Shown one piece after another: positions 24,090 to 32,583 of a stretch of DNA of 64,000 nt; position 1 is the stretch's first letter, and each line of letters starts with the position of its first letter. The stretch spans positions 2,073-66,072 of the forward strand of contig JAUNOC010000007.1 in assembly GCA_030531205.1 (NCBI GenBank). Reading direction: 5' to 3'. The notes beneath the pieces are model-generated. The model had not been told where the DNA came from, did not search any database, and worked only from the letters and a program-made list of their open reading frames with translations. A program made the translations under genes and the position numbers. Source of the DNA: Phascolarctobacterium sp. GTDB lineage: Bacteria; Bacillota; Negativicutes; Acidaminococcales; Acidaminococcaceae.

Positions 24090-24120
24090 AAAAAAATCCG
24101 CCGAAAGGCGGATTTTTTGT
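24090..24120 (+). terminator. Rho-independent terminator after gdh
   Basis: AATCCGCC gaaa GGCGGATT followed by TTTTT. Confidence 0.85.
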
Positions 24121-24134
24121 TGCGGCGGTGCCAC

Positions 24135-24191
24135 AATGAAAAGTTAAAAGTTAAAAATGAAAAATTATGGTAGGATGTTCCTGTGATTATA
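24135..24191 (+). repeat. Heptamer tract (GAAAAGT TAAAAGT TAAAAAT GAAAAAT) plus a solo element TIR
   Basis: ATGGTAGGATGTTCCTGTGATTATA at 24167-24191 matches the family TIR. No core or second TIR follows. Confidence 0.7.
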
Positions 24192-24206
24192 TTTCAGAAT
24201 GTTTTA

Positions 24207-24215
24207 TGATATAAT
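24207..24215 (+). promoter_or_regulatory. Extended -10 promoter element TGATATAAT
   Basis: Fits the TGnTATAAT consensus, 44 nt upstream of the HAD-like CDS. The same 19-nt block recurs at 26001-26020. Confidence 0.45.
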
Positions 24216-24258
24216 ATTAAAATAACCATTCAAAAAATAATTAAGCGGAGTATAAGAA

Positions 24259-25329
24259 ATGAAAAATTTATTGTTGGCTTGTTTGACAGTTTTATATCTA
24301 TTGGCAAACACTTGTCCTGTTGTCCAGGCCATGTGTCGGGAAGACATAGCAAAGATAAATATCAGACGGGAAAAACATTTTAAGTATTGGACGGCGGATT
24401 CAAATGCTAAAAAAATTTTGGTTGAATATGTTAAGGATGTTGTTAATCCCAACAGCCAAAATTTTATCCCCGTGCCGGAGAGGATTGCGGTATTTGATTG
24501 TGACGGCACTTTGATTGGTGAGCGTAACCCTTACTATTTTGAAGGACTGATGCTTTTGTACCGTAATGCCGACCCCAATGTACCTCTAAAATGCAAAAAT
24601 GCAAAAGCAACGGCTCAAATAAGGTCAATAATTGACGGAGGTTCTATGCCGTCACAGGTGTGGCAGGAATTGGAACAGGCATATGTGGACTGTTTAGCGG
24701 GGCAGACACCTGAGGAGTACAGGGAATATGTACGGCATTATATAACTACCGAAAAGGTTGAAGGTTATTCCAATCTTAAAATTGGGGAAGAGTTCTTTTT
24801 GCCCATGGTTGAAATAGTATCTTATCTGCGGAATAACAAGTTTTCAATATATATTGTTACGGGGAGCGAGCGGGACGAAATGCGTGTTTATTGTGAACCG
24901 CTGAAGATACCCTATCAAAACATAATTGGCAGTGACCACAGCATTACAACGGAGAAAATGGGAAGTTCTGACAGCAGCAGATATTTTTATGGTGCTGCCG
25001 GAAATGAAAAAATAGTGCGTGGCAACGAACTGACTGCAAAAAATCTTAATTTCAACAAAATTATCGCCATGAACAGGGAGATTGGCATGCGTCCTGTGCT
25101 GGCATTTGGCAATGGCTCCGGTGATATGGGAATGTTCAATTATACGGTTATGAATAATAAGCACCGTACTTTGGCTTTTGCGGTGTTGTGCGATGACACG
25201 GAACGGGAAAACGGAAGTTTGAAAAGTGCGGAGAAGATGCGGAAGAATTGTGAAAAATATGGATGGATTCCCATTTCTATGAAAAATGACTTTGCCACTA
25301 TTTATGGCTATGATGTGAAAAAACTATAA
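24259..25329 (+). CDS. Secreted HAD-superfamily hydrolase (SerB-like phosphatase family)
   Basis: N-terminal signal-like segment MKNLLLACLTVLYLLANTCPVVQA. HAD motif I FDCDGTL and the C-terminal GNGSGDMGM motif. Confidence 0.7.
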   Translation: MKNLLLACLTVLYLLANTCPVVQAMCREDIAKINIRREKHFKYWTADSNAKKILVEYVKDVVNPNSQNFIPVPERIAVFDCDGTLIGERNPYYFEGLMLLYRNADPNVPLKCKNAKATAQIRSIIDGGSMPSQVWQELEQAYVDCLAGQTPEEYREYVRHYITTEKVEGYSNLKIGEEFFLPMVEIVSYLRNNKFSIYIVTGSERDEMRVYCEPLKIPYQNIIGSDHSITTEKMGSSDSSRYFYGAAGNEKIVRGNELTAKNLNFNKIIAMNREIGMRPVLAFGNGSGDMGMFNYTVMNNKHRTLAFAVLCDDTERENGSLKSAEKMRKNCEKYGWIPISMKNDFATIYGYDVKKL

Positions 25330-25359
25330 TTACTGCTCACTGCATTTTTCTGACGAGTA

Positions 25360-25419
25360 AAAATAAAAAAAGCGCCAAAATTATATACACTTGACCCTAA
25401 ATGTATATAATTTTGACGC
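25360..25419 (-). terminator. Minus-strand-oriented rho-independent terminator
   Basis: A 19-bp AT-rich stem (GCGCCAAAATTATATACAC / ATGTATATAATTTTGACGC, 2 mismatches). On the minus strand it is followed by TTTTTTTATTTTT. There is no T-run on the plus strand. Confidence 0.5.
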
Positions 25420-25458
25420 TAAAGCAAAAAGCAAAAGGAAAAAATTTTTACGTGATGT

Positions 25459-25499
25459 CCAATCTGATATCAGATTGGGGTAAGTCTGATATCAGATTG
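25459..25499. promoter_or_regulatory. Palindrome pair U1: a 20-bp perfect palindrome plus a 12-bp core copy
   Basis: CCAATCTGATATCAGATTGG (25459-25478) and TCTGATATCAGA (25485-25496). Confidence 0.6.
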
Positions 25500-25514
25500 A
25501 GCGTTAAAAAAATT

Positions 25515-25545
25515 AATTAGCACGCAAGTGCTAATTTTTATTTTC
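25515..25545. terminator. Bidirectional terminator-like hairpin
   Basis: AATTAGCAC gcaa GTGCTAATT, flanked by AAAAAAA upstream and TTTATTTT downstream. Confidence 0.6.
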
Positions 25546-25590
25546 TGATTGAAATCATAAAAATTATTTTGTGGCGAACGCCGAAGGCGA

Positions 25591-25606
25591 AATCTTATAT
25601 AAGATT
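25591..25606. promoter_or_regulatory. 16-bp perfect palindrome of the same motif class
   Basis: AATCTTATATAAGATT. Confidence 0.55.
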
Positions 25607-25653
25607 GAACATACACCGAAAGAAAAATTTTGTAAAACTTTTGGTGATAGCTG

Positions 25654-25691
25654 AATATCATATGAGATTGGGTGCAATCTCATATGATATT
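25654..25691. promoter_or_regulatory. Palindrome U2: 17-bp perfect inverted repeat with a 4-nt loop
   Basis: AATATCATATGAGATTG ggtg CAATCTCATATGATATT. Like U1, it is followed by RRCGTTAAAAAAAT. Confidence 0.6.
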
Positions 25692-25718
25692 GGACGTTAA
25701 AAAAATAAATGCCATGTT

Positions 25719-25818
25719 TGCCCTCTTGGTGAAGAGGGTGGATTGCCCATAGGAACATAGAAGGGCAAGACGGGTGATTGCTCACTGCGAAGTTCTCAAC
25801 CCCTTCACCAAGGGACCT
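25719..25818 (-). repeat. Core-only fragment of the element family (inverted relative to copy A2)
   Basis: CCCTCTTGGTGAAGAGGGTGGATTGCCCATAGGAACATAGAAGGGCAAGACGGGTGATTGC... aligns with 28704-28790 and with the reverse complement of 40525-40583. Confidence 0.7.
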
Positions 25819-25837
25819 TTCTTATTTTTTCTCTTAC

Positions 25838-25965
25838 TATGTATAATAGACATGAGAATGAATTTTATAACCAAAATGGCAGAAAAATTTTAATTTTCTT
25901 TATTATATATAATAGACACGAGTTTTGCTTTTGCAACCAAAATGGGAAAGAAAATCTCTAATTTC
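25838..25965 (+). repeat. Two tandem ~61-62-nt direct repeats, 66-bp period
   Basis: TATGTATAATAGACATGAG...AACCAAAATGGCAGAAAAATTTTAATTTTC compared with TATATATAATAGACACGAG...AACCAAAATGGGAAAGAAAATCTCTAATTTC. Confidence 0.6.
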
Positions 25966-26007
25966 ACGATTAAAGTATAGTTTCTGTTTCATTTGGTGTA
26001 GTTTTTA

Positions 26008-26016
26008 TGATATAAT
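26008..26016 (+). promoter_or_regulatory. Extended -10 promoter element TGATATAAT upstream of the DUF2075-like gene
   Basis: Fits the TGnTATAAT consensus. Embedded in GTTTTTATGATATAATATT, which is near-identical to 24201-24219. Confidence 0.45.
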
Positions 26017-26107
26017 ATTTATATCTATTCTCGCCCCCAGTCAGGGGAGGGGTTGTTTGCAGTTGTAAGTTAGATAAATGTGTAGAAAGGATATCTGCAT
26101 AAATATT

Positions 26108-28099
26108 ATGGCTAAATATACATTTGCAACCAAAGAAGGTAAGGCATATTATTACAATTCAATACCGGATTTTATTAAAGATGATGGTAATAGCATAATA
26201 GGGCAGTTAGTAGAACATTCTTTTCAAGTTGAAAAGGAGCAAACAGATGCTTGGAGTTATCAAATTACTGAATTGCAAACTCGTTTACAGGATGCAGGAG
26301 TGAGTGGCGATATCATTTTTGAATATGACATTGTACGTCTTGGTAAACGCATTGATGTCATTTTATTAATACGTCACATGGTATTTTCTATTGAGTTTAA
26401 AAACGGTAAGAATATTTTTACTGCGCAAGACGCTCAGCAAGCAGAAGACTATGCTTTAGATATTAAAAACTTTCATAAAGAGTCCGAAAATCTATATGTT
26501 TGCCCCATATTGGTAGCTACACATGCTCCTAAATATCATAAAGAGCAAGAACTTAAATGTTATACTGATAAACAAGTGTATTTGCAAAGGGAAAATATTG
26601 AGACATTAATACCTAAAGTAAATGAAGTGGCTAGTAAATATGGCGATGATGAAAAGATTGATTTTGAAAAGTGGTTTAATTCGCCATATTACCCAACACC
26701 GACTATTATTGCAGCAGCCGTTGAAGCATATAAAACCCATAATATTAGTGATATAGCAAAATCAGCTGCGGGACAAGCAAATATAGAAGCATGTGAAAAG
26801 GAAATTAATGACATTATTGAGTACGCTAAAAGTAATCATAAAAAATGTATTTGTTTTGTAACAGGTGTTCCTGGTGCAGGTAAAACGCTTGTTGGTTTAG
26901 ATGTAGTAGCAAAAAACCTTGATAAAGGCGAAAAAAATATGAGCGTTTATTTATCTGGTAATGGTCCATTAGTTGAAGTTTTACAAGAAGCACTTATTAA
27001 GAGTACGAAGATAAAAGGAACTACAAAACGCGAAACGCAAACGGCTGTATCAGCGTTAATTCAAGGAAGTTATGCATTCAAAAAAGCGCATGCTAATGAT
27101 GAAAATCCCATACCTGAAAATATCTTGATTTTTGATGAGGCACAACGTGTTTGGAATGTTCAAAAGATGGCATCTAAACACAAAACAGAAGGAATGGCTG
27201 TCAGTGAATCGTATTTATTTTATAAGATTATGGACAGAAAAAAGGACTGGGCAGTAATGATTTGTTTAGTAGGGCTCGGGCAAGATATTTATGATGGTGA
27301 AGTAGGCATTAATGAGTGGTTTAGATGTGGCATTAATGATTTTAAAGATTGGGAAATATTCTATTCGTCAGATATTTTTGATCAATTAGAAGATAAGAAC
27401 ATTGATAGACAAGCGATTGAAGGATGTAATAGATGTCATATTAAATTAGGATTACATTTAAAAACGTCTGTAAGGTCATTCCGTGCGGATAAGCAGAGTG
27501 CTTTTGTAGATAATTTGTTGGCAAATAATTTAGTAGATGCATCTAAACTATATGAACAAATAGTGCAGAAATATCCTTTATATATTACTCGTGATTATTC
27601 ATTGGCTAAATGGTGGGTACGTCAACAGGTTAGAGGTTCACAACGTTGTGGCGTTTTGGCAAGCAGTAGTGCACAGCGGTTAAAACCAGAGGGAATTTAT
27701 ATTCCTAAAGATATTGATGTTAAAAATTGGTTTTTAGCTCCAAGCACGGATTTGCGGTCGTCAAATAGATTGGAAGTAGTTGCAAGTGAGTTTGATGTAC
27801 AAGGATTAGAAATTGATTGGGGACTTGTATGTTGGGACGCTGATTTAAGACGTAAAGGTGATGATTGGGATTACTACAATTTTAGAGGAGCAAAATGGAC
27901 TAAACGAAACAAAATAGAAACGCAGCGCTATTTGTTAAATTCTTATCGTGTGTTATTAACACGTTCAAGACAAGGTATGGTAATTTTTGTTCCTAAGGGT
28001 GTAAATAAAGATGAGGATGAAACAAGAAACTATAAGTTTTATGATGGTATTTATAATTACTTGTTGTCATGTGGTATTAAAGAACTAAAGAAAAAGTGA
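26108..28099 (+). CDS. PD-(D/E)xK-like nuclease domain fused to a P-loop SF1-like ATPase (DUF2075 / Schlafen group-3 helicase-like)
   Basis: N-terminal ...EYDIVRLGKRIDVILLIRHMVFSIEFKNG...DYALDIKNFH. Walker A is GVPGAGKT and Walker B is ILIFDEAQ. The C-terminal YRVLLTRSRQGMVIF resembles helicase motif VI. Visibly AT-rich. An alternative ATG exists at 26078. Confidence 0.75.
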   Translation: MAKYTFATKEGKAYYYNSIPDFIKDDGNSIIGQLVEHSFQVEKEQTDAWSYQITELQTRLQDAGVSGDIIFEYDIVRLGKRIDVILLIRHMVFSIEFKNGKNIFTAQDAQQAEDYALDIKNFHKESENLYVCPILVATHAPKYHKEQELKCYTDKQVYLQRENIETLIPKVNEVASKYGDDEKIDFEKWFNSPYYPTPTIIAAAVEAYKTHNISDIAKSAAGQANIEACEKEINDIIEYAKSNHKKCICFVTGVPGAGKTLVGLDVVAKNLDKGEKNMSVYLSGNGPLVEVLQEALIKSTKIKGTTKRETQTAVSALIQGSYAFKKAHANDENPIPENILIFDEAQRVWNVQKMASKHKTEGMAVSESYLFYKIMDRKKDWAVMICLVGLGQDIYDGEVGINEWFRCGINDFKDWEIFYSSDIFDQLEDKNIDRQAIEGCNRCHIKLGLHLKTSVRSFRADKQSAFVDNLLANNLVDASKLYEQIVQKYPLYITRDYSLAKWWVRQQVRGSQRCGVLASSSAQRLKPEGIYIPKDIDVKNWFLAPSTDLRSSNRLEVVASEFDVQGLEIDWGLVCWDADLRRKGDDWDYYNFRGAKWTKRNKIETQRYLLNSYRVLLTRSRQGMVIFVPKGVNKDEDETRNYKFYDGIYNYLLSCGIKELKKK

Positions 28100-28161
28100 A
28101 TTGGTTTGTCCTTCCTTTAATGCGGGGGTTATAACAGGTGATATGTGGTTGTTTATTTTGG

Positions 28162-28201
28162 GGAAATTCCGTAATTTCCACGTGGAAATTACGGAATTTC
28201 C
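28162..28201. repeat. 40-bp perfect palindrome
   Basis: GGAAATTCCGTAATTTCCAC|GTGGAAATTACGGAATTTCC, verified base by base. Lies 62 nt after the DUF2075-like stop. Confidence 0.9.
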
Positions 28202-28399
28202 ATTTGTTGAAAAAAATTTAAAGGCGAGGTTTTTAACCTCCTATATATACAAGACGAAAAAATATTCAAATTGTAGATATTGTCAAAAAAAAAATTTTAA
28301 AAAAATTGTTATGTACCATATTTGACCCACTCCTTATGCTATCATAAACCCATAGCAAGAAGAGAGAACTCTTCATAAAATTTTAAGGAGGTGCGGAAA

Positions 28400-28591
28400 A
28401 TGTTGGAATGTCCACGCTGCGGCAGCAGCAAATTGGTTACGAAGAGTGACAAGCATAATTTTTGGTTGGGTACTGACAAACTGAAGATTAAAAAGGATTA
28501 TGGCTGGGGTATGGGAAATACCAGTGTGCCAGATGATAAGGTGGTTTGTCAGGAATGTGGTTATGTGTTCAAACCCGGATGGAGTAGGTAA
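28400..28591 (+). CDS. Small zinc-ribbon protein (63 aa)
   Basis: CPRCG ... CQECG (two CxxC pairs). AAGGAGG lies 8 nt upstream of the ATG at 28400. A strong terminator follows immediately. Confidence 0.6.
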   Translation: MLECPRCGSSKLVTKSDKHNFWLGTDKLKIKKDYGWGMGNTSVPDDKVVCQECGYVFKPGWSR

Positions 28592-28592
28592 C

Positions 28593-28620
28593 AAAAAAAA
28601 CGGCGAAAGCCGTTTTTTTG
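28593..28620 (+). terminator. Rho-independent terminator
   Basis: AAAAAAAA CGGC gaaa GCCG TTTTTTT. Confidence 0.8.
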
Positions 28621-28935
28621 TTAGTTAAAAGAGATAAGAGATGGTAAGAGGTATCAGGTGTCAGGTTTCAGGTTAGAGGGAAGTTAGCATCAAGCGGACT
28701 TTGCCCTCTTTGTAAAGAGGGTGGATTGCCTAAAGGAACATAGAAAGGCAAGACGGGTGATTGCATACTGCAAAGTTCTCAATCCTCAGTCGGCTACGCC
28801 GCCAGCTCCTTCACCAGGGAGCCAAAAGTTAGCAATATGGTGAACTTAAATAATTTCAATTACAGGAACATATTACCATCATTGTGAATTATGCATTTTG
28901 AATTGTGAATTACAATTGTGAATTATCAATAATAG
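28621..28935 (-). mobile_element. Degenerate element copy D: heptamer tract, inverted core, one TIR, heptamer tract
   Basis: AGGTATC AGGTGTC AGGTTTC AGGTTAG AGGGAAG (28649-28683). The core 28684-28850 aligns with the reverse complement of copy A2. The TIR ...CAGGAACATATTACCAT ends at 28879. ATTGTGA ATTATGC ATTTTGA ATTGTGA... spans 28881-28929. Confidence 0.65.
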
Positions 28936-28944
28936 TGGTATAAT
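28936..28944 (+). promoter_or_regulatory. Extended -10 promoter element TGGTATAAT for gatCAB
   Basis: Fits the TGnTATAAT consensus, about 30 nt upstream of gatC. Confidence 0.45.
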
Positions 28945-28975
28945 ATAAAAAAATATTCTAAAAAGGAGATTTGTG

Positions 28976-30738: not shown

Positions 30739-32180
30739 TGGCTAAATATATTACAGTTATCGGCTTGGAAGTACATGCTGAATTGAAAACTAAATCCAAG
30801 GCGTTCTGCTCTTGTTCCACAGAGTTCGGCGCTACTCCCAATACTCATGTTTGCCCTGTGTGCTTGGGTATGCCAGGAGCGTTGCCGGTGTTGAACAAGC
30901 AGGTGGTAGAGTTTGCTATTCGTGCGGGTTTGGCTTTGAACTGCGAAATTCAAAAGTTCAATAAGTTTGACAGAAAAAATTATTTTTATCCTGACTTGGC
31001 AAAGAATTATCAAATTAGTCAGTGGGAAGAACCGATTTGCCTCAAGGGGCATATTGATATTAATGTGAATGGGGAGGAAAAGCGGATTGGTATTACCCGT
31101 ATTCACATGGAAGAAGATGCGGGGAAATTGGTACACAGCGGTGCCACTATTTCCACTTCCGACAGCAGTGCGGTGGACTATAACCGTGCCGGTGTTCCGT
31201 TGATTGAAATTGTGTCTGAGCCGGATATGCGGAGTGCGGAAGAAGCCCGTGCTTATATGGAGAACTTGAAAGCAATTTTGGAATACACGGATGTGTGCGA
31301 TTGCAAGATGCAGGAAGGTTCCTTGCGTTGTGATGCCAATATTTCCATTATGCCGGAAGGTGCAAAGGAATTTGGTACCCGTGCGGAAATTAAAAACTTG
31401 AATTCTTTTAAGGCATTGGTGCGTGCCATTGAATATGAAGTTGAGCGTCAGAAAGAGGTTATTGAAGATGGTGGTCATGTGGTGCAGGAAACCCGCACTT
31501 GGGATGATGCCAAAGGTGTAACTTTGAGTATGCGTTCCAAAGAGGAAGCCCATGATTACCGTTATTTCCCTGAACCGGATTTGGTGCCTGTGGAAATTGA
31601 TGATGCGTGGATTAATCGGGTTAAGAGTGAATTGCCGGAATTGCCGGTACAACGTCAGGCACGCTTGATGGAGCAGTTCGGTTTGCCGAGTTATGATGCG
31701 GGACTTTTGGTTTCTTCCAAAGCGATGGCAGAATATTTTGATAAGGCAGTTAAAACTGCCAAGGATGCGAAGGCGGTTTCCAACTGGCTTTTAGGTGATG
31801 TTTCCGCTTGGCTCAATAATGAGAATAAAGAGATTGGGGACTTTGTGGTTATACCGGAACATTTGGCAGAGTTGACAAATTTGGTTAAAGACGGAGTGTT
31901 GAGTTCCAAATTGGCAAAGAAAGTTTTTGCTGAAATGTTGAAGGGCAACAAGGCACCGAAAGATTTAGTTAAGGAATTGGGTTTGGAGCAGGTGAGTGAT
32001 ACGGGTGCCATTGAAAAATTTGTAGATGAGGCATTGGCAGAAAACCCGCAATCAGTTGCGGACTACAAGGCAGGCAAGGATAAGGCGATAGGTTTCTTGG
32101 TCGGACAGATTATGAAGAAATCCAAGGGCAAGGCAAATCCGGGCATGGTGCAGCAATTATTGAAGCAGAAACTTCAATAA
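30738..32180 (+). CDS. gatB: Asp/Glu-tRNA amidotransferase subunit B
   Basis: 480 aa. ...[18 protein letters not shown]... is canonical GatB. The start overlaps the gatA stop. Confidence 0.95.
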
Positions 32181-32282
32181 TTCAGGTTTCAGGTATTAGG
32201 TGTCAGGTTAGAGGATAAAGGAATTAGGATTCAGGATTTAGGGGAAGGATAAGGCGTAGAGCGTAGGGCATAAGGCATAGGG
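32181..32282. repeat. About 15 consecutive degenerate heptamers (TTCAGGT-type) immediately after the gatB stop
   Basis: TTCAGGT TTCAGGT ATTAGGT GTCAGGT TAGAGGA TAAAGGA ATTAGGA TTCAGGA TTTAGGG GAAGGAT AAGGCGT AGAGCGT AGGGCAT AAGGCAT AGGGAAG. Confidence 0.75.
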
Positions 32283-32541
32283 AAGGTAAGATGTTCCTGT
32301 GATTATAGCAGGAAAGTTGGCAGAGTGCGAATTCTCGTCCGCCCATTGAGGGGCGGGGAACCGCCTATGGGAGCGTGTTGGCGGTGGTGGGGTGGCGACT
32401 GCATAGCGAAAGTATCGCTTTAATCGCCACCCTCAGTCAGTTGCTACGCAACTGCCAGCCCCCTCTAAGGGGGCACGAGAGTCAGCATTGTGCTAAATTT
32501 TAATCATTTTAATCATTTTAATCAAAGGAACATATCACCAT
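32283..32541 (+). mobile_element. Complete 259-bp TIR-bounded non-coding element, copy E
   Basis: The left end AAGGTAAGATGTTCCTGTGATTATA matches the reverse complement of the right end, ATGGTGATATGTTCCTTTGATTA. The core shares modules with copies A1, A2, F and G. Confidence 0.75.
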
Positions 32542-32583
32542 AATTTTTCATTTTTAACTTTTAATTTTTAATTTTTAATTGTT
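32542..32583. repeat. Heptamer tract CATTTTT AACTTTT AATTTTT AATTTTT AATTGTT
   Basis: 7-nt periodicity. It is the reverse complement of the tract type at 24138-24165. Confidence 0.65.

What the first reader, a model, noticed from the sequence alone, without database searches (positions are those of the whole stretch)
24121..28972. AT-rich ~4.8-kb accessory island between gdh and gatCAB, bounded by element fragments
Between two strong terminators (24090-24120 and 28593-28620) and the gatC promoter lie the following:
- a solo element TIR (24167-24191);
- a secreted HAD-like hydrolase;
- 750 bp of non-coding DNA packed with palindromes, terminators, an inverted core fragment of the element family and a 66-bp tandem repeat;
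- a DUF2075-like nuclease/ATPase gene;
- a 40-bp perfect palindrome;
- a zinc-ribbon mini-ORF;
- a degenerate element copy (28621-28935).

Hand counts of several 60-nt lines in 26100-28100 give about 30-40% GC (roughly one third), against about 43% in a line of fusA. Gene content is unrelated to the flanking housekeeping genes. This pattern fits horizontally acquired or rearranged accessory DNA delimited by the repeat family.
Basis: partly seen in the sequence, partly recalled or inferred. Interest (0 to 1): 0.6.

Follow-up and report, generated by a model that had tools for sequence, protein, structure and literature searches.

The report
Layered accessory region with framed defence gene
The AT-rich stretch between gdh and gatCAB is real accessory DNA built in layers, and its youngest layer is a horizontally acquired nuclease-helicase defence gene set between a repeated promoter block and a palindromic terminator that also frame this bacterium's CRISPR-Cas9 and restriction systems.

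Summary

**Composition.** The interval is AT-rich: 35.4% GC against 41.4% for the genome (z = -2.0). It is not one island:
- The HAD hydrolase has native composition and occurs in 3 of 5 species of the genus.
- The Zn-ribbon ORF occurs in 2 of 5.
- The DUF2075 gene (GC3 0.23) occurs only here.

**The DUF2075 protein.** It is a full-length PADLOC PDC-S41 match: a PD-(D/E)xK nuclease fused to a Schlafen-type SF1 helicase, the same domain plan as Nhi. Its nearest relatives are spread across phyla and sit in defence islands.

**The repeats.** Flanking by the TIR repeat family is uninformative: 293 TIRs in 1.33 Mb, present in 60-69% of long intergenic gaps. Two rarer modules are informative:
- The 750-bp non-coding block has 12 loci and carries an extended -10 promoter.
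- The 40-bp palindrome module has 4 loci.

Together they frame DUF2075, the Cas9/CRISPR locus and type II R-M systems here, and six defence loci in the sister species. That species has different cargo in a block-and-palindrome frame next to the same HAD-Zn-gatC genes.

**Best reading.** This is a lineage-specific, repeat-borne promoter/terminator frame in which defence genes are installed and exchanged, most likely by recombination. Mechanism and expression are inferred, not shown.

The parts
24092..24119 (+). gdh intrinsic terminator. An A-run and T-run flank a GC stem, so it could act in both directions.
   Evidence: Folds at -17.7 kcal/mol, z -4.0.
24135..24193 (+). Solo left arm of the genus-specific mosaic repeat: AT-rich heptad tract plus TIR GGTAGGATGTTCCTGTGATTA.
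   Evidence: Repeat families D2/D4. It is 89% complementary to the right arm at 32519-32573. The TIR census gives 293 hits against 9 in shuffled sequence.
24207..24215 (+). Extended -10 promoter (TGATATAAT) upstream of HAD. It belongs to the repeated module D12.
   Evidence: D12 copies at 24197, 25998 and 39235. The motif is read from the sequence. Promoter function is inferred.
24259..25329 (+). Secreted or lipid-anchored HAD-superfamily hydrolase. This is the older, genus-restricted layer with native composition.
   Evidence: PDB 4ovy E = 3.8e-21. Weak Pfam HAD hits. Found in G000, G001 (90% identity) and G002 (53%) only. GC3 0.42, 55th percentile.
25339..26095 (+). Repeated non-coding 'block', about 12 loci in this genome. 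It contains hairpins and palindromes, the element core module (25717-25802), two 66-bp tandem units (25827-25964), the extended -10 promoter P1 (TGATATAAT, 26008-26016) and a leader.
   Evidence: BLAST against the genome. Marker census. Alignment of 13 copies. It is 90-97% identical to paralogous copies but only 76-78% identical to G001's copy next to the orthologous HAD-Zn-gatC segment.
26108..28099 (+). Species-specific, horizontally acquired single-gene defence candidate: a PD-(D/E)xK nuclease (residues about 40-140) fused to a DUF2075/Schlafen-type SF1 helicase. PADLOC family PDC-S41; domain plan as in Nhi.
   Evidence: PADLOC E = 5.4e-238. Pfam PF09848 E = 6.6e-70. E72, D83 and E96 invariant and K98 nearly so, plus GVPGAGKT and DEAQ motifs, across 85 homologs. 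AF2 model pLDDT 91. Foldseek hits SLFN11, SLFN14, RecD, Upf1 and Dda. Absent from 40 relatives except a 33%-identical homolog in another family and one weak partial match (E 2e-4). GC3 0.23.
28150..28290 (+). Repeated 3' 'palindrome module': the 40-bp perfect palindrome (28162-28201), a small GC hairpin and a conserved tail. It likely terminates the cargo transcript.
   Evidence: -27.9 kcal/mol, z -5.7. Alignment of 8 copies behind 6 different cargos shows a sharp 5' boundary and co-varying arms. Four loci in G000.
28337..28345 (+). Extended -10 promoter P2 (TGCTATCAT), part of a module that elsewhere follows the block directly.
   Evidence: Read from the sequence. The same module lies upstream of cas9 on C14 and in the empty C5 copy.
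28400..28591 (+). Zn-ribbon mini-protein (two CxxC pairs) with its own RBS. It is shared with the sister species and is independent of DUF2075.
   Evidence: Zn-ribbon Pfam hits, below cut-off. 94% identical in G001, where it sits directly after HAD with no DUF2075.
28593..28620 (+). Intrinsic terminator of the Zn-ribbon gene.
   Evidence: -16.4 kcal/mol, z -5.1.
28621..28935 (+). Complete but degenerate short copy of the mosaic repeat: degenerate left arm, core module 28700-28785, right TIR and arm 28854-28916.
   Evidence: Families D3, D6, D7 and pairs I4-I6.
28916..28944 (+). gatC promoter-like site (TTGTGA, 17-nt spacer, TATAAT, with TG).
   Evidence: Consensus scan, 10 of 12 matches. Function is inferred.

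Best explanation
**What the interval is.** The gdh-gatC interval is a layered accessory region at a lineage-specific rearrangement junction. The organism is an uncultured Acidaminococcaceae gut bacterium with a small (1.33 Mb), repeat-rich genome.

**Layers**
1. A secreted HAD-type hydrolase, old enough to have native composition.
2. A small Zn-ribbon gene shared with the sister species.
3. A recently acquired foreign gene that arrived essentially as a bare ORF. It encodes a PD-(D/E)xK nuclease fused to a DUF2075 (Schlafen-type SF1) helicase. It is a full-length member of the PADLOC candidate defence family PDC-S41 and has the domain plan of Nhi.

**Predicted function (inferred).** The protein acts alone: it uses ATP-driven translocation or unwinding to find invading nucleic acid and its nuclease to cut it.

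**The frame**
- Upstream lies a roughly 750-bp repeated non-coding block that ends in a consensus extended -10 promoter and a leader.
- Downstream lies a repeated module built around a 40-bp palindrome that can terminate transcription.
- In this genome the same frame brackets the Cas9/CRISPR locus, two type II restriction-modification systems and one unknown AT-rich 4-gene module.
- In the sister species it brackets six defence loci.
- Gene-less ('empty') copies also exist.

**Most likely role (inferred).** The frame supplies expression signals. Because it is present at many loci and in related strains, it also supplies homology arms through which defence cargos are inserted, swapped or lost by recombination.

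**The TIR repeats.** The ubiquitous TIR repeats at the outer edges of the interval are background, not borders.
For: **Accessory and layered**
- DUF2075 has no match among 40 relatives apart from a 33%-identical homolog in another family and one weak partial match.
- HAD is in 3 of 5 species of the genus and in no other genus.
- Zn-ribbon is in 2 of 5.
- GC3 is 0.23 for DUF2075 against 0.42 for HAD.

**Rearrangement junction:** gdh and gatA are on different contigs or far apart in every relative, and the DNA downstream of gdh differs in G002 and G003.

**Defence identity**
- PDC-S41, E = 5.4e-238, full length.
- Invariant nuclease and Walker motifs.
- Model pLDDT 91 with alpha-beta-beta-beta-alpha-beta topology at residues 43-137.
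- SF1 helicase fold hits.
- Homologs lie beside Septu, type II and type IV R-M, Vsr and Mza genes.
- Nhi and Nhi-like proteins with this domain plan defend against phage (10.1101/776245; 10.1101/2022.05.11.491447).

**Horizontal transfer**
- The nearest relatives (66-74% identity) are in Lachnospiraceae, Dialister, Ruminobacter, Sphaerochaeta, Selenomonadaceae and Bacteroidales.
- The closest relative (83% aa) shares DNA homology over the CDS only, starting at the ATG.

**The frame**
- Block copies.
- Cargos: Cas9, DpnII-like R-M and TdeIII R-M in G000. In G001: Cas9, AlwI R-M, C5-MTase R-M, type IIG-like R-M, DpnII-like R-M, and a PDC-S02/Vsr/HNH/PDC-S55 set.
- The palindrome module has a sharp boundary behind 6 different cargos.
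- Empty copies lie at C11 and C5.
- Five of 12 block loci are followed by a co-oriented low-GC3 gene, against an 8.8% background; binomial P = 0.0025.

**Exchange**
- G001 has different cargo in a block-and-palindrome frame adjacent to the same HAD-Zn-gatC segment, on the other side of HAD.
- The TdeIII R-M is absent from the orthologous G001 site, which holds only repeats.
- The nuclease gene is swapped inside an otherwise 93%-identical R-M cassette.
- The block next to DUF2075 is 90-97% identical to paralogs but 76-78% to G001's copy, while orthologous genes are 87-89% identical. This points to spread or conversion after speciation.
Against:
- The frame is neither necessary nor exclusive. 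Most of the roughly 27 AT-rich gene clusters lack it, including other likely defence genes (DUF262-like, another MTase pair). Several block copies precede ordinary or no genes.
- The 5' boundaries between block and cargo are ragged across loci. That fits opportunistic recombination but also fits secondary colonisation by repeats.
- The G000 and G001 cassettes sit on opposite sides of HAD, so they are not a simple allelic swap.
- Only two genomes carry the frame and no metagenome contigs matched, so population-level exchange is unobserved.
- The Nhi HMM itself matches only weakly.
Confidence: 0.62

Rival explanations
1. Secondary colonisation. The foreign AT-rich genes arrived by unrelated routes. 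The block and palindrome modules, as mobile MITE/REP-like DNA with a preference for AT-rich or dispensable flanks, inserted next to them afterwards. The frame then marks tolerant DNA and plays no part in acquisition or exchange, though it may still provide promoters.
For: - The modules belong to a hugely proliferated repeat repertoire.
- 5' boundaries are ragged.
- Empty and non-defence copies exist.
- Within-genome copies are more alike than orthologous DNA, implying recent spread.
Against: - Only about 12 block and 4 palindrome loci exist among 382 intergenic gaps, yet block and palindrome pair up in the same order and orientation around cargo at 3 loci here and at least 3 in G001.
- The modules hug the ORFs within 0-90 nt on both sides.
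- Different cargo sits between homologous flanks in the sister species.
Confidence: 0.22
2. One TIR-bounded composite element (a mobile insertion cassette or cargo-carrying MITE) spans 24135-28916, carries HAD, DUF2075 and Zn-ribbon as passengers, and was inserted as a unit between gdh and gatC.
For: A left arm plus TIR at 24135-24193 and a right TIR plus arm at 28854-28916 lie in inverted orientation.
Against: - The three genes have different phyletic ages and composition.
- G001 has HAD-Zn-gatC without DUF2075 and in another arrangement.
- The left arm pairs best (89%) with the arm at 32519-32573, not with 28854-28916.
- 28621-28935 is a self-contained short element.
- TIRs occur in 60-69% of long intergenic gaps.
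- The interval holds only three credible genes, none with a transposase or integrase hit.
Confidence: 0.06
3. A dedicated site-specific cassette system. The palindrome acts like an attC-type recombination site and the block like an attI/promoter platform, served by a recombinase encoded elsewhere, so defence ORFs are captured by site-specific recombination.
For: - The palindrome module has a sharp, conserved 5' boundary behind six different cargos, and its arms co-vary.
- The DUF2075 insert is a bare ORF.
- A short GGTTTTTA-like direct repeat flanks the promoter-to-palindrome segment when compared with the empty C11 copy.
Against: - No integrase lies in or next to the interval.
- Each cassette has its own promoter block instead of one common Pc.
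- Cassettes are dispersed, not arrayed.
- 5' junctions differ between loci.
- The palindrome is perfect, unlike attC sites (general knowledge of integrons).
- The putative direct repeat is short and low in complexity.
Confidence: 0.07
4. There is no real island. The low GC simply reflects an unusually large share of ordinary AT-rich intergenic DNA, and the genes are native.
For: - Intergenic DNA averages 35% GC.
- HAD and Zn-ribbon have native composition.
- The interval is only at the 5.8th percentile.
Against: - DUF2075 has GC3 at the 2nd percentile and is absent from all close relatives.
- Its nearest homologs are in other phyla.
- None of the three genes occurs elsewhere in the family.
Confidence: 0.03

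Closest known systems
Nhi (S. epidermidis SERP2475; Bari et al.) and 'Nhi-like' (Millman et al. 2022) single-gene nuclease-helicase defence
   Same: One polypeptide with an N-terminal PD-(D/E)xK-type nuclease and a DUF2075 SF1 helicase. It is a stand-alone gene in defence neighbourhoods.
   Different: - There is no meaningful sequence membership. The PADLOC Nhi model scores 21.5 bits, over the P-loop only.
- PADLOC files it under the untested candidate family PDC-S41.
- No phenotype is known.
Minimal mobile elements of Neisseria (Saunders & Snyder 2002; described in PMC3787668)
   Same: Gene content varies between close relatives between conserved flanks, often involves R-M genes, and is thought to be exchanged by homologous recombination.
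   Different: Here the conserved flanks are non-coding repeat modules present at about a dozen loci, not unique housekeeping genes. They also carry a promoter and a terminator, so any copy could serve as a landing pad.
REP/BIME, Correia and other MITE-like intergenic repeats that donate promoters or terminators
   Same: A highly proliferated, modular, hairpin-rich intergenic repeat family. Some modules carry -10 boxes or terminator-like hairpins.
   Different: A specific 5' module and a specific 3' module recur as a pair around defence cargos. I know of no such pairing reported for those families (own knowledge; literature search found none).
Integron gene cassettes
   Same: Bare ORFs are followed by a palindromic element and supplied with an external promoter.
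   Different: - No integrase lies nearby.
- Cassettes are dispersed, not arrayed.
- There is one promoter block per cassette.
- The palindrome is perfect, not an attC-like imperfect site.
- 5' junctions are ragged.
Defence islands and hotspots in general
   Same: A variable locus holds different defence genes in sister genomes: PDC-S41 here, and PDC-S02 x2, Vsr, HNH and PDC-S55 in G001.
   Different: Only one defence gene sits at this site here. There is no integrase, tRNA or prophage anchor. The recurring feature is the repeat frame, not the chromosomal position.

Membership tests
PADLOC PDC-S41 (candidate single-gene defence) | Full-length match to the family HMM | tested here: met
   E = 5.4e-238, 789.6 bits, protein 22-671 against profile 3-654 of 657.
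PADLOC PDC-S41 (candidate single-gene defence) | Demonstrated anti-phage activity | not testable with these tools
   No paper in the library mentions PDC-S41. This needs a phage challenge of a laboratory strain expressing the gene.
Nhi / Nhi-like nuclease-helicase immunity | N-terminal PD-(D/E)xK-type nuclease domain | tested here: met
   E72, D83 and E96 are invariant and K98 is at least 90% conserved in 85 homologs. The model shows alpha(43-63)-beta(68-75)-beta(80-88)-beta(91-98)-alpha(106-122)-beta(130-137) at pLDDT mostly above 90. There was no separate fold search of this domain.
Nhi / Nhi-like nuclease-helicase immunity | DUF2075 SF1-type helicase domain with Walker A and B motifs | tested here: met
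   PF09848 E = 6.6e-70. GVPGAGKT and FDEAQR are conserved. Foldseek hits SLFN11, SLFN14, RecD, Upf1 and Dda at probability 1.0.
Nhi / Nhi-like nuclease-helicase immunity | Sequence membership in the Nhi family model | tested here: not met
   The PADLOC Nhi model scores E = 1.9e-5, 21.5 bits, over residues 250-362 only.
Classical genomic island | Deviant composition and sporadic distribution | tested here: met
   35.4% against 41.4% GC, z -2.0. The genes are absent from other genera. The deviation is carried only by DUF2075 and the non-coding DNA.
Classical genomic island | Integrase or mobility gene, tRNA or att direct-repeat borders | tested here: not met
   Only three credible genes, none a recombinase. 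No tRNA lies in 24-29 kb. The borders are generic repeats present in 41-69% of intergenic gaps.
Integron | intI next to attI, a common promoter, and arrayed cassettes each ending in an imperfect attC | tested here: not met
   No integrase in the interval. Cassettes are dispersed over contigs C6, C9, C10, C12 and C14. Each has its own block. The palindrome is perfect.
Mobile insertion cassette / cargo-carrying MITE | Matching terminal inverted repeats with target-site duplication, mobilised in trans by a cognate transposase | tested here: inconclusive
   TIRs are present at 24167-24187 and 28857-28877, but the left arm pairs better with 32519-32573. Element ends are fuzzy heptad tracts, so a target-site duplication could not be read. 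The only transposase-like ORF seen is a frameshifted IS30-like gene elsewhere.
Minimal mobile element (Neisseria type) | Different gene content between the same conserved flanks in close relatives | tested here: inconclusive
   G000 and G001 carry different cargo between homologous block and palindrome flanks adjacent to the same HAD-Zn-gatC genes, but on opposite sides of HAD. The TdeIII R-M shows presence/absence at the pth site. The flanks are repeats, not unique genes.
HAD-superfamily hydrolase (gene 24259-25329) | HAD fold with DxD motif I | tested here: met
   PDB 4ovy E = 3.8e-21 over residues 44-349. FDCDGT is read from the sequence. Pfam scores are 22 bits, below the 26-27 bit cut-offs.

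The most novel reading that the evidence does not exclude
The block and the palindrome module are the two ends of a dedicated, lineage-specific 'plug-in' platform for defence genes. It would be a repeat-borne promoter-leader on one side and a palindromic terminator or recombination site on the other, copied to about a dozen chromosomal sites. It would capture bare foreign ORFs and operons (Cas9/CRISPR, R-M systems, PDC-S41 and unknown modules) and let them be shuffled among sites and strains. In effect this is an integrase-less, dispersed analogue of an integron for immunity genes. The unannotated framed modules (C10:29177-31845; C1:527-1357) would then be new defence systems.
Probability: 0.25. 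Interest if true: 0.8.

Novelty: new variant of a known kind. Interest (0 to 1): 0.52.

Why it matters
On its own the island is an ordinary variable locus with one candidate defence gene.

The unexpected part is the architecture. In a 1.33-Mb gut bacterium, at least four defence loci share the same repeat-derived 5' promoter block, and three of them also share the 3' palindromic terminator module. Six defence loci in its sister species are framed the same way. The cargos differ or are missing at matching sites.

If the frame really mediates installation and exchange, three things follow:
- It would show how a streamlined genome with no obvious integrases keeps a fluid immune repertoire.
- It would give the genus's mysterious mosaic repeats a selectable function.
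- It would offer a simple guilt-by-frame rule for finding new defence genes in this lineage. Two unannotated framed modules are already candidates.

The report also adds a high-confidence model (pLDDT 91) and a conserved catalytic set for the untested PDC-S41 family.

Tried and rejected
- **Rfam** at gathering thresholds found nothing in 24-29 kb.
- **TRF** did not score the 66-bp repeat. BLAST and marker spacing were used instead.
- **Codon log-likelihood metric:** it was uninformative because AT-ending codons are the genome's commonest. GC3 was used instead.
- **First AF2 model:** from 7 sequences, too poor to use (pLDDT 56). It was replaced by an 85-sequence alignment.
- **PDB sequence search** with the DUF2075 protein gave only a chance hit.
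- **Plasmid and phage collections** hold only distant relatives of 42% identity or less, so no vector was identified.
- **Exact-protein look-ups:** no other assembly carries the DUF2075 protein, and HAD appears only on a 1.25-kb contig.
- **Metagenome scans** for the palindrome and the tandem unit found nothing. The species-genome scan found only the sister species.
- **Junction comparison of HAD-Zn (G001) with the two window junctions:** it showed no clean target-site duplication, only a shared TTGACCC motif. A simple insertion model was not adopted.
- **Matching arms at 24135 and 32519:** I considered that the island plus gatCAB was inserted into one element. I left this as a note, because AT-type heptad arms are the commonest type.

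Full report
**Observation**

All listed features are present.
- The two terminators fold strongly (-17.7 and -16.4 kcal/mol, z -4 and -5).
- 24135-24193 is a solo heptad arm plus TIR of a repeat family.
- 24259-25329 encodes a HAD-fold protein. PDB 4ovy matches at E = 3.8e-21, and Pfam hits fall just under the cut-off.
- 25330-26077 is non-coding and full of hairpins and palindromes. It holds a core module of the repeat family (25717-25802) and two 66-bp tandem units about 76% alike.
- 26078-28099 carries PF09848/DUF2075 (E = 6.6e-70).
- 28162-28201 is a perfect 40-bp palindrome.
- 28391-28591 is a CxxC...CxxC mini-ORF.
- 28621-28935 is a degenerate element copy.

GC is 35.4% against 41.4% for the 1.33-Mb genome (z -2.0, 5.8th percentile of equal-size windows) and about 44-47% in the neighbouring kilobases.

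Two starts need correction. DUF2075 most likely begins at ATG 26108. The Zn-ribbon most likely begins at ATG 28400, behind AAGGAGG.

**The interval is not uniform**
- HAD has 40.6% GC and GC3 of 0.42 (55th percentile of 983 ORFs).
- The Zn-ribbon has 44% GC.
- DUF2075 has 33.7% GC and GC3 of 0.23 (2nd percentile).
- The non-coding block at 32.9% is normal for this genome's intergenic DNA, which averages 35% length-weighted.

The dip therefore comes from one foreign gene plus an unusually large share of ordinary intergenic DNA.

**Distribution and synteny**

The sister genome G001 is titled an Acidaminococcaceae MAG. Earlier notes call the lineage an uncultured Phascolarctobacterium (a lead I did not test).
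- DUF2075 has no match among 40 relatives, apart from a 33%-identical homolog in another family and one weak partial match.
- HAD is in G000, G001 (90% identity) and G002 (53%), and in none of 26 other genomes.
- The Zn-ribbon is in G000 and G001 only.
- gdh and gatA are on different contigs in every relative. In the two complete relatives they are far apart: about 1.1 Mb in G012 (same family) and about 0.75 Mb in G027 (same order).
- Upstream synteny (rplQ-HD-gdh) is kept in G001 to G003 (G004's gdh contig is too short to tell), but what follows gdh differs in G002 and G003.

The gdh|gatCAB junction is therefore a lineage-specific rearrangement point, and the content is layered by age.

**The repeat borders are uninformative**
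- The TIR GGTAAGATGTTCCTGTGATTA has 293 hits (up to 5 mismatches) against 9 in shuffled sequence.
- 41% of intergenic gaps of at least 100 bp contain one, as do 60% of gaps of at least 300 bp and 69% of gaps of at least 500 bp.
- The left arm at 24135 pairs best with the arm at 32519, beyond gatB, not with 28854.

**The DUF2075 protein**
- It is a full-length match to PADLOC PDC-S41 (E = 5.4e-238). The Nhi model matches only the P-loop (21.5 bits).
- In 85 homologs of 29-83% identity, E72, D83 and E96 are invariant and K98 nearly so. So are GVPGAGKT and FDEAQR.
- The AF2 model from that alignment has pLDDT 91 and pTM 0.88. Residues 43-137 form an alpha-beta-beta-beta-alpha-beta unit that carries those residues.
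- Foldseek places the rest with SLFN11, SLFN14, RecD, Upf1 and Dda.
- Nhi, and a 'Nhi-like' protein with the same domain plan but no sequence identity, are experimentally shown single-gene defences (10.1101/776245 and 10.1101/2022.05.11.491447).
- Homologs of 66-74% identity are scattered over Lachnospiraceae, Dialister, Ruminobacter, Agathobacter, Sphaerochaeta, Anaerovibrio, Selenomonadaceae and Bacteroidales.
- Those homologs lie beside Septu, type II and type IV R-M, Vsr and Mza genes.
- The closest relative (83% aa) shares 79% DNA identity over window 26107-28028 only, that is the CDS, starting at the ATG. There it is the last gene of a different operon.

The gene therefore arrived by horizontal transfer and sits here as a bare ORF.

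**The frame**

The 750-bp non-coding block is itself a repeat with about 12 loci in this genome. The palindrome module has 4 loci.

| Block copy in G000 | What follows it | Palindrome module after cargo? |
|---|---|---|
| C14 | Cas9-Cas1-Cas2-CRISPR | yes |
| C9 | DpnII-like type II R-M | yes |
| C6:235 kb | TdeIII R-M | no |
| C10 | four AT-rich genes with no family hit | no |
| C12 (this window) | DUF2075 | yes |
| C11, C5 | nothing (gene-less copies) | not applicable |

Five of 12 block loci are followed by a co-oriented gene with GC3 below 0.29. The background rate is 8.8%, giving a binomial P of 0.0025.

G001 shows the same build independently:
- Cas9/CRISPR
- AlwI R-M
- a C5-methylase R-M
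- a type IIG-like R-M with a PDC-S60-like gene
- the DpnII-like R-M
- next to HAD-Zn-gatC, a cassette of two PDC-S02 genes, Vsr, an HNH nuclease and PDC-S55

Alignments give more detail.
- The block has an 'A' form ending in TGnTATAAT plus a leader with a co-varying hairpin, and a 'B' form made of tandem units only.
- The palindrome module starts at the same position behind six different cargos, and its two arms co-vary.
- The window and the G001 cassette stay homologous up to about 26095, roughly 12 nt before the ATG.

Among about 185,000 species genomes, only G001 carries the palindrome.

**Signs of turnover**
- G001 has different cargo in a block-and-palindrome frame adjacent to the same HAD-Zn-gatC segment.
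- The TdeIII R-M is missing from the orthologous G001 site, which holds only repeats.
- In the DpnII-like cassette the methylases are 93% identical, but the middle nuclease-sized gene is unrelated.
- The block next to DUF2075 is 90-97% identical to paralogs in the same genome but 76-78% identical to G001's copy. Orthologous genes are 87-89% identical.

**Interpretation**
- Shown: the layering, the foreign origin and defence-family identity of DUF2075, the non-specificity of the TIR borders, and the recurrent block/palindrome frame around defence cargos in two genomes.
- Inferred: that P1 drives DUF2075, that the palindrome terminates it, that the frame provides homology arms for cassette gain, loss and exchange, and that the protein defends against phage through a nuclease-helicase mechanism.
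- The main rival is that these repeat modules merely colonise the flanks of foreign AT-rich DNA.
- A single TIR-bounded transposon, an integron-like system and 'no island' all fit the data poorly.

**Limits**
- Both genomes are MAGs.
- Only two genomes carry the frame.
- Most AT-rich clusters in the genome lack the frame.

Noticed in passing
G000 contig C10:28629-31845 (locus L021 629-3845): A B-form block is followed by four co-oriented AT-rich genes (212, 264, 119 and 300 aa; GC3 0.18-0.29). None has a PADLOC hit above noise, and the only Pfam hit is a weak M48-peptidase match. By the frame rule this is a candidate unknown defence module.
   Followed up: partly
G000 C9:22046-24698 (L019) versus G001 C74 (L037 5854-8294): Orthologous DpnII-like R-M cassettes keep the downstream N4/N6 methylase at 93% identity (the upstream D12 methylases look orthologous but were not compared). 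The roughly 180-aa gene between the two methylases is unrelated in the two species, and G000 has an extra 81-aa ORF. This is a nuclease swap inside a framed cassette.
   Followed up: partly
window 24135-24189 and 32519-32573; element 32179-32578: The solo left arm after gdh is 89% complementary to the right arm of the element after gatB. That element has mismatched arm types: GC-rich heptads on the left and AT heptads on the right. This suggests recombination between repeat copies created the gdh|island-gatCAB arrangement.
   Followed up: no
G000 contig C1:475-1357: A block tandem unit at the contig start is followed by a 276-aa AT-rich ORF (GC3 0.26) with no PADLOC hit.
   Followed up: partly
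G000 C11:29411-30322 (L025) and C5:81908-82370 (L022): These are gene-less copies of the frame. C11 is a complete TIR-to-TIR 0.9-kb element in which the block runs straight into the tail of the palindrome module. In C5 the block plus leader runs straight into the P2 promoter module.
   Followed up: yes
G000 C6:236356-237000 (L020 4356-5000): An IS30-like transposase (HTH_38) is split by a frameshift, right next to the block of the TdeIII R-M cassette. Its DNA is multi-copy in G004.
   Followed up: partly
window 25372-25419: This 20-bp-stem hairpin is followed by a T-run only on the minus strand, so it looks like a minus-strand terminator inside the block. HAD has no obvious plus-strand terminator before 25515-25536.
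   Followed up: no
G001 C62 (L005 11480-11670): Two copies of the palindrome, one diverged and one near-perfect, follow the last cargo gene. A promoter-like TTGATT...TACAAT lies between them.
   Followed up: no
locus L039 (Logan SRR23311177 contig, 7.3 kb): The closest DUF2075 relative (83% aa) is the last gene of a four-gene operon with two unannotated proteins (620 and 292 aa) and a DUF6339 protein, next to a divergent C5 methylase. In other hosts PDC-S41 may therefore work within a larger system.
   Followed up: partly
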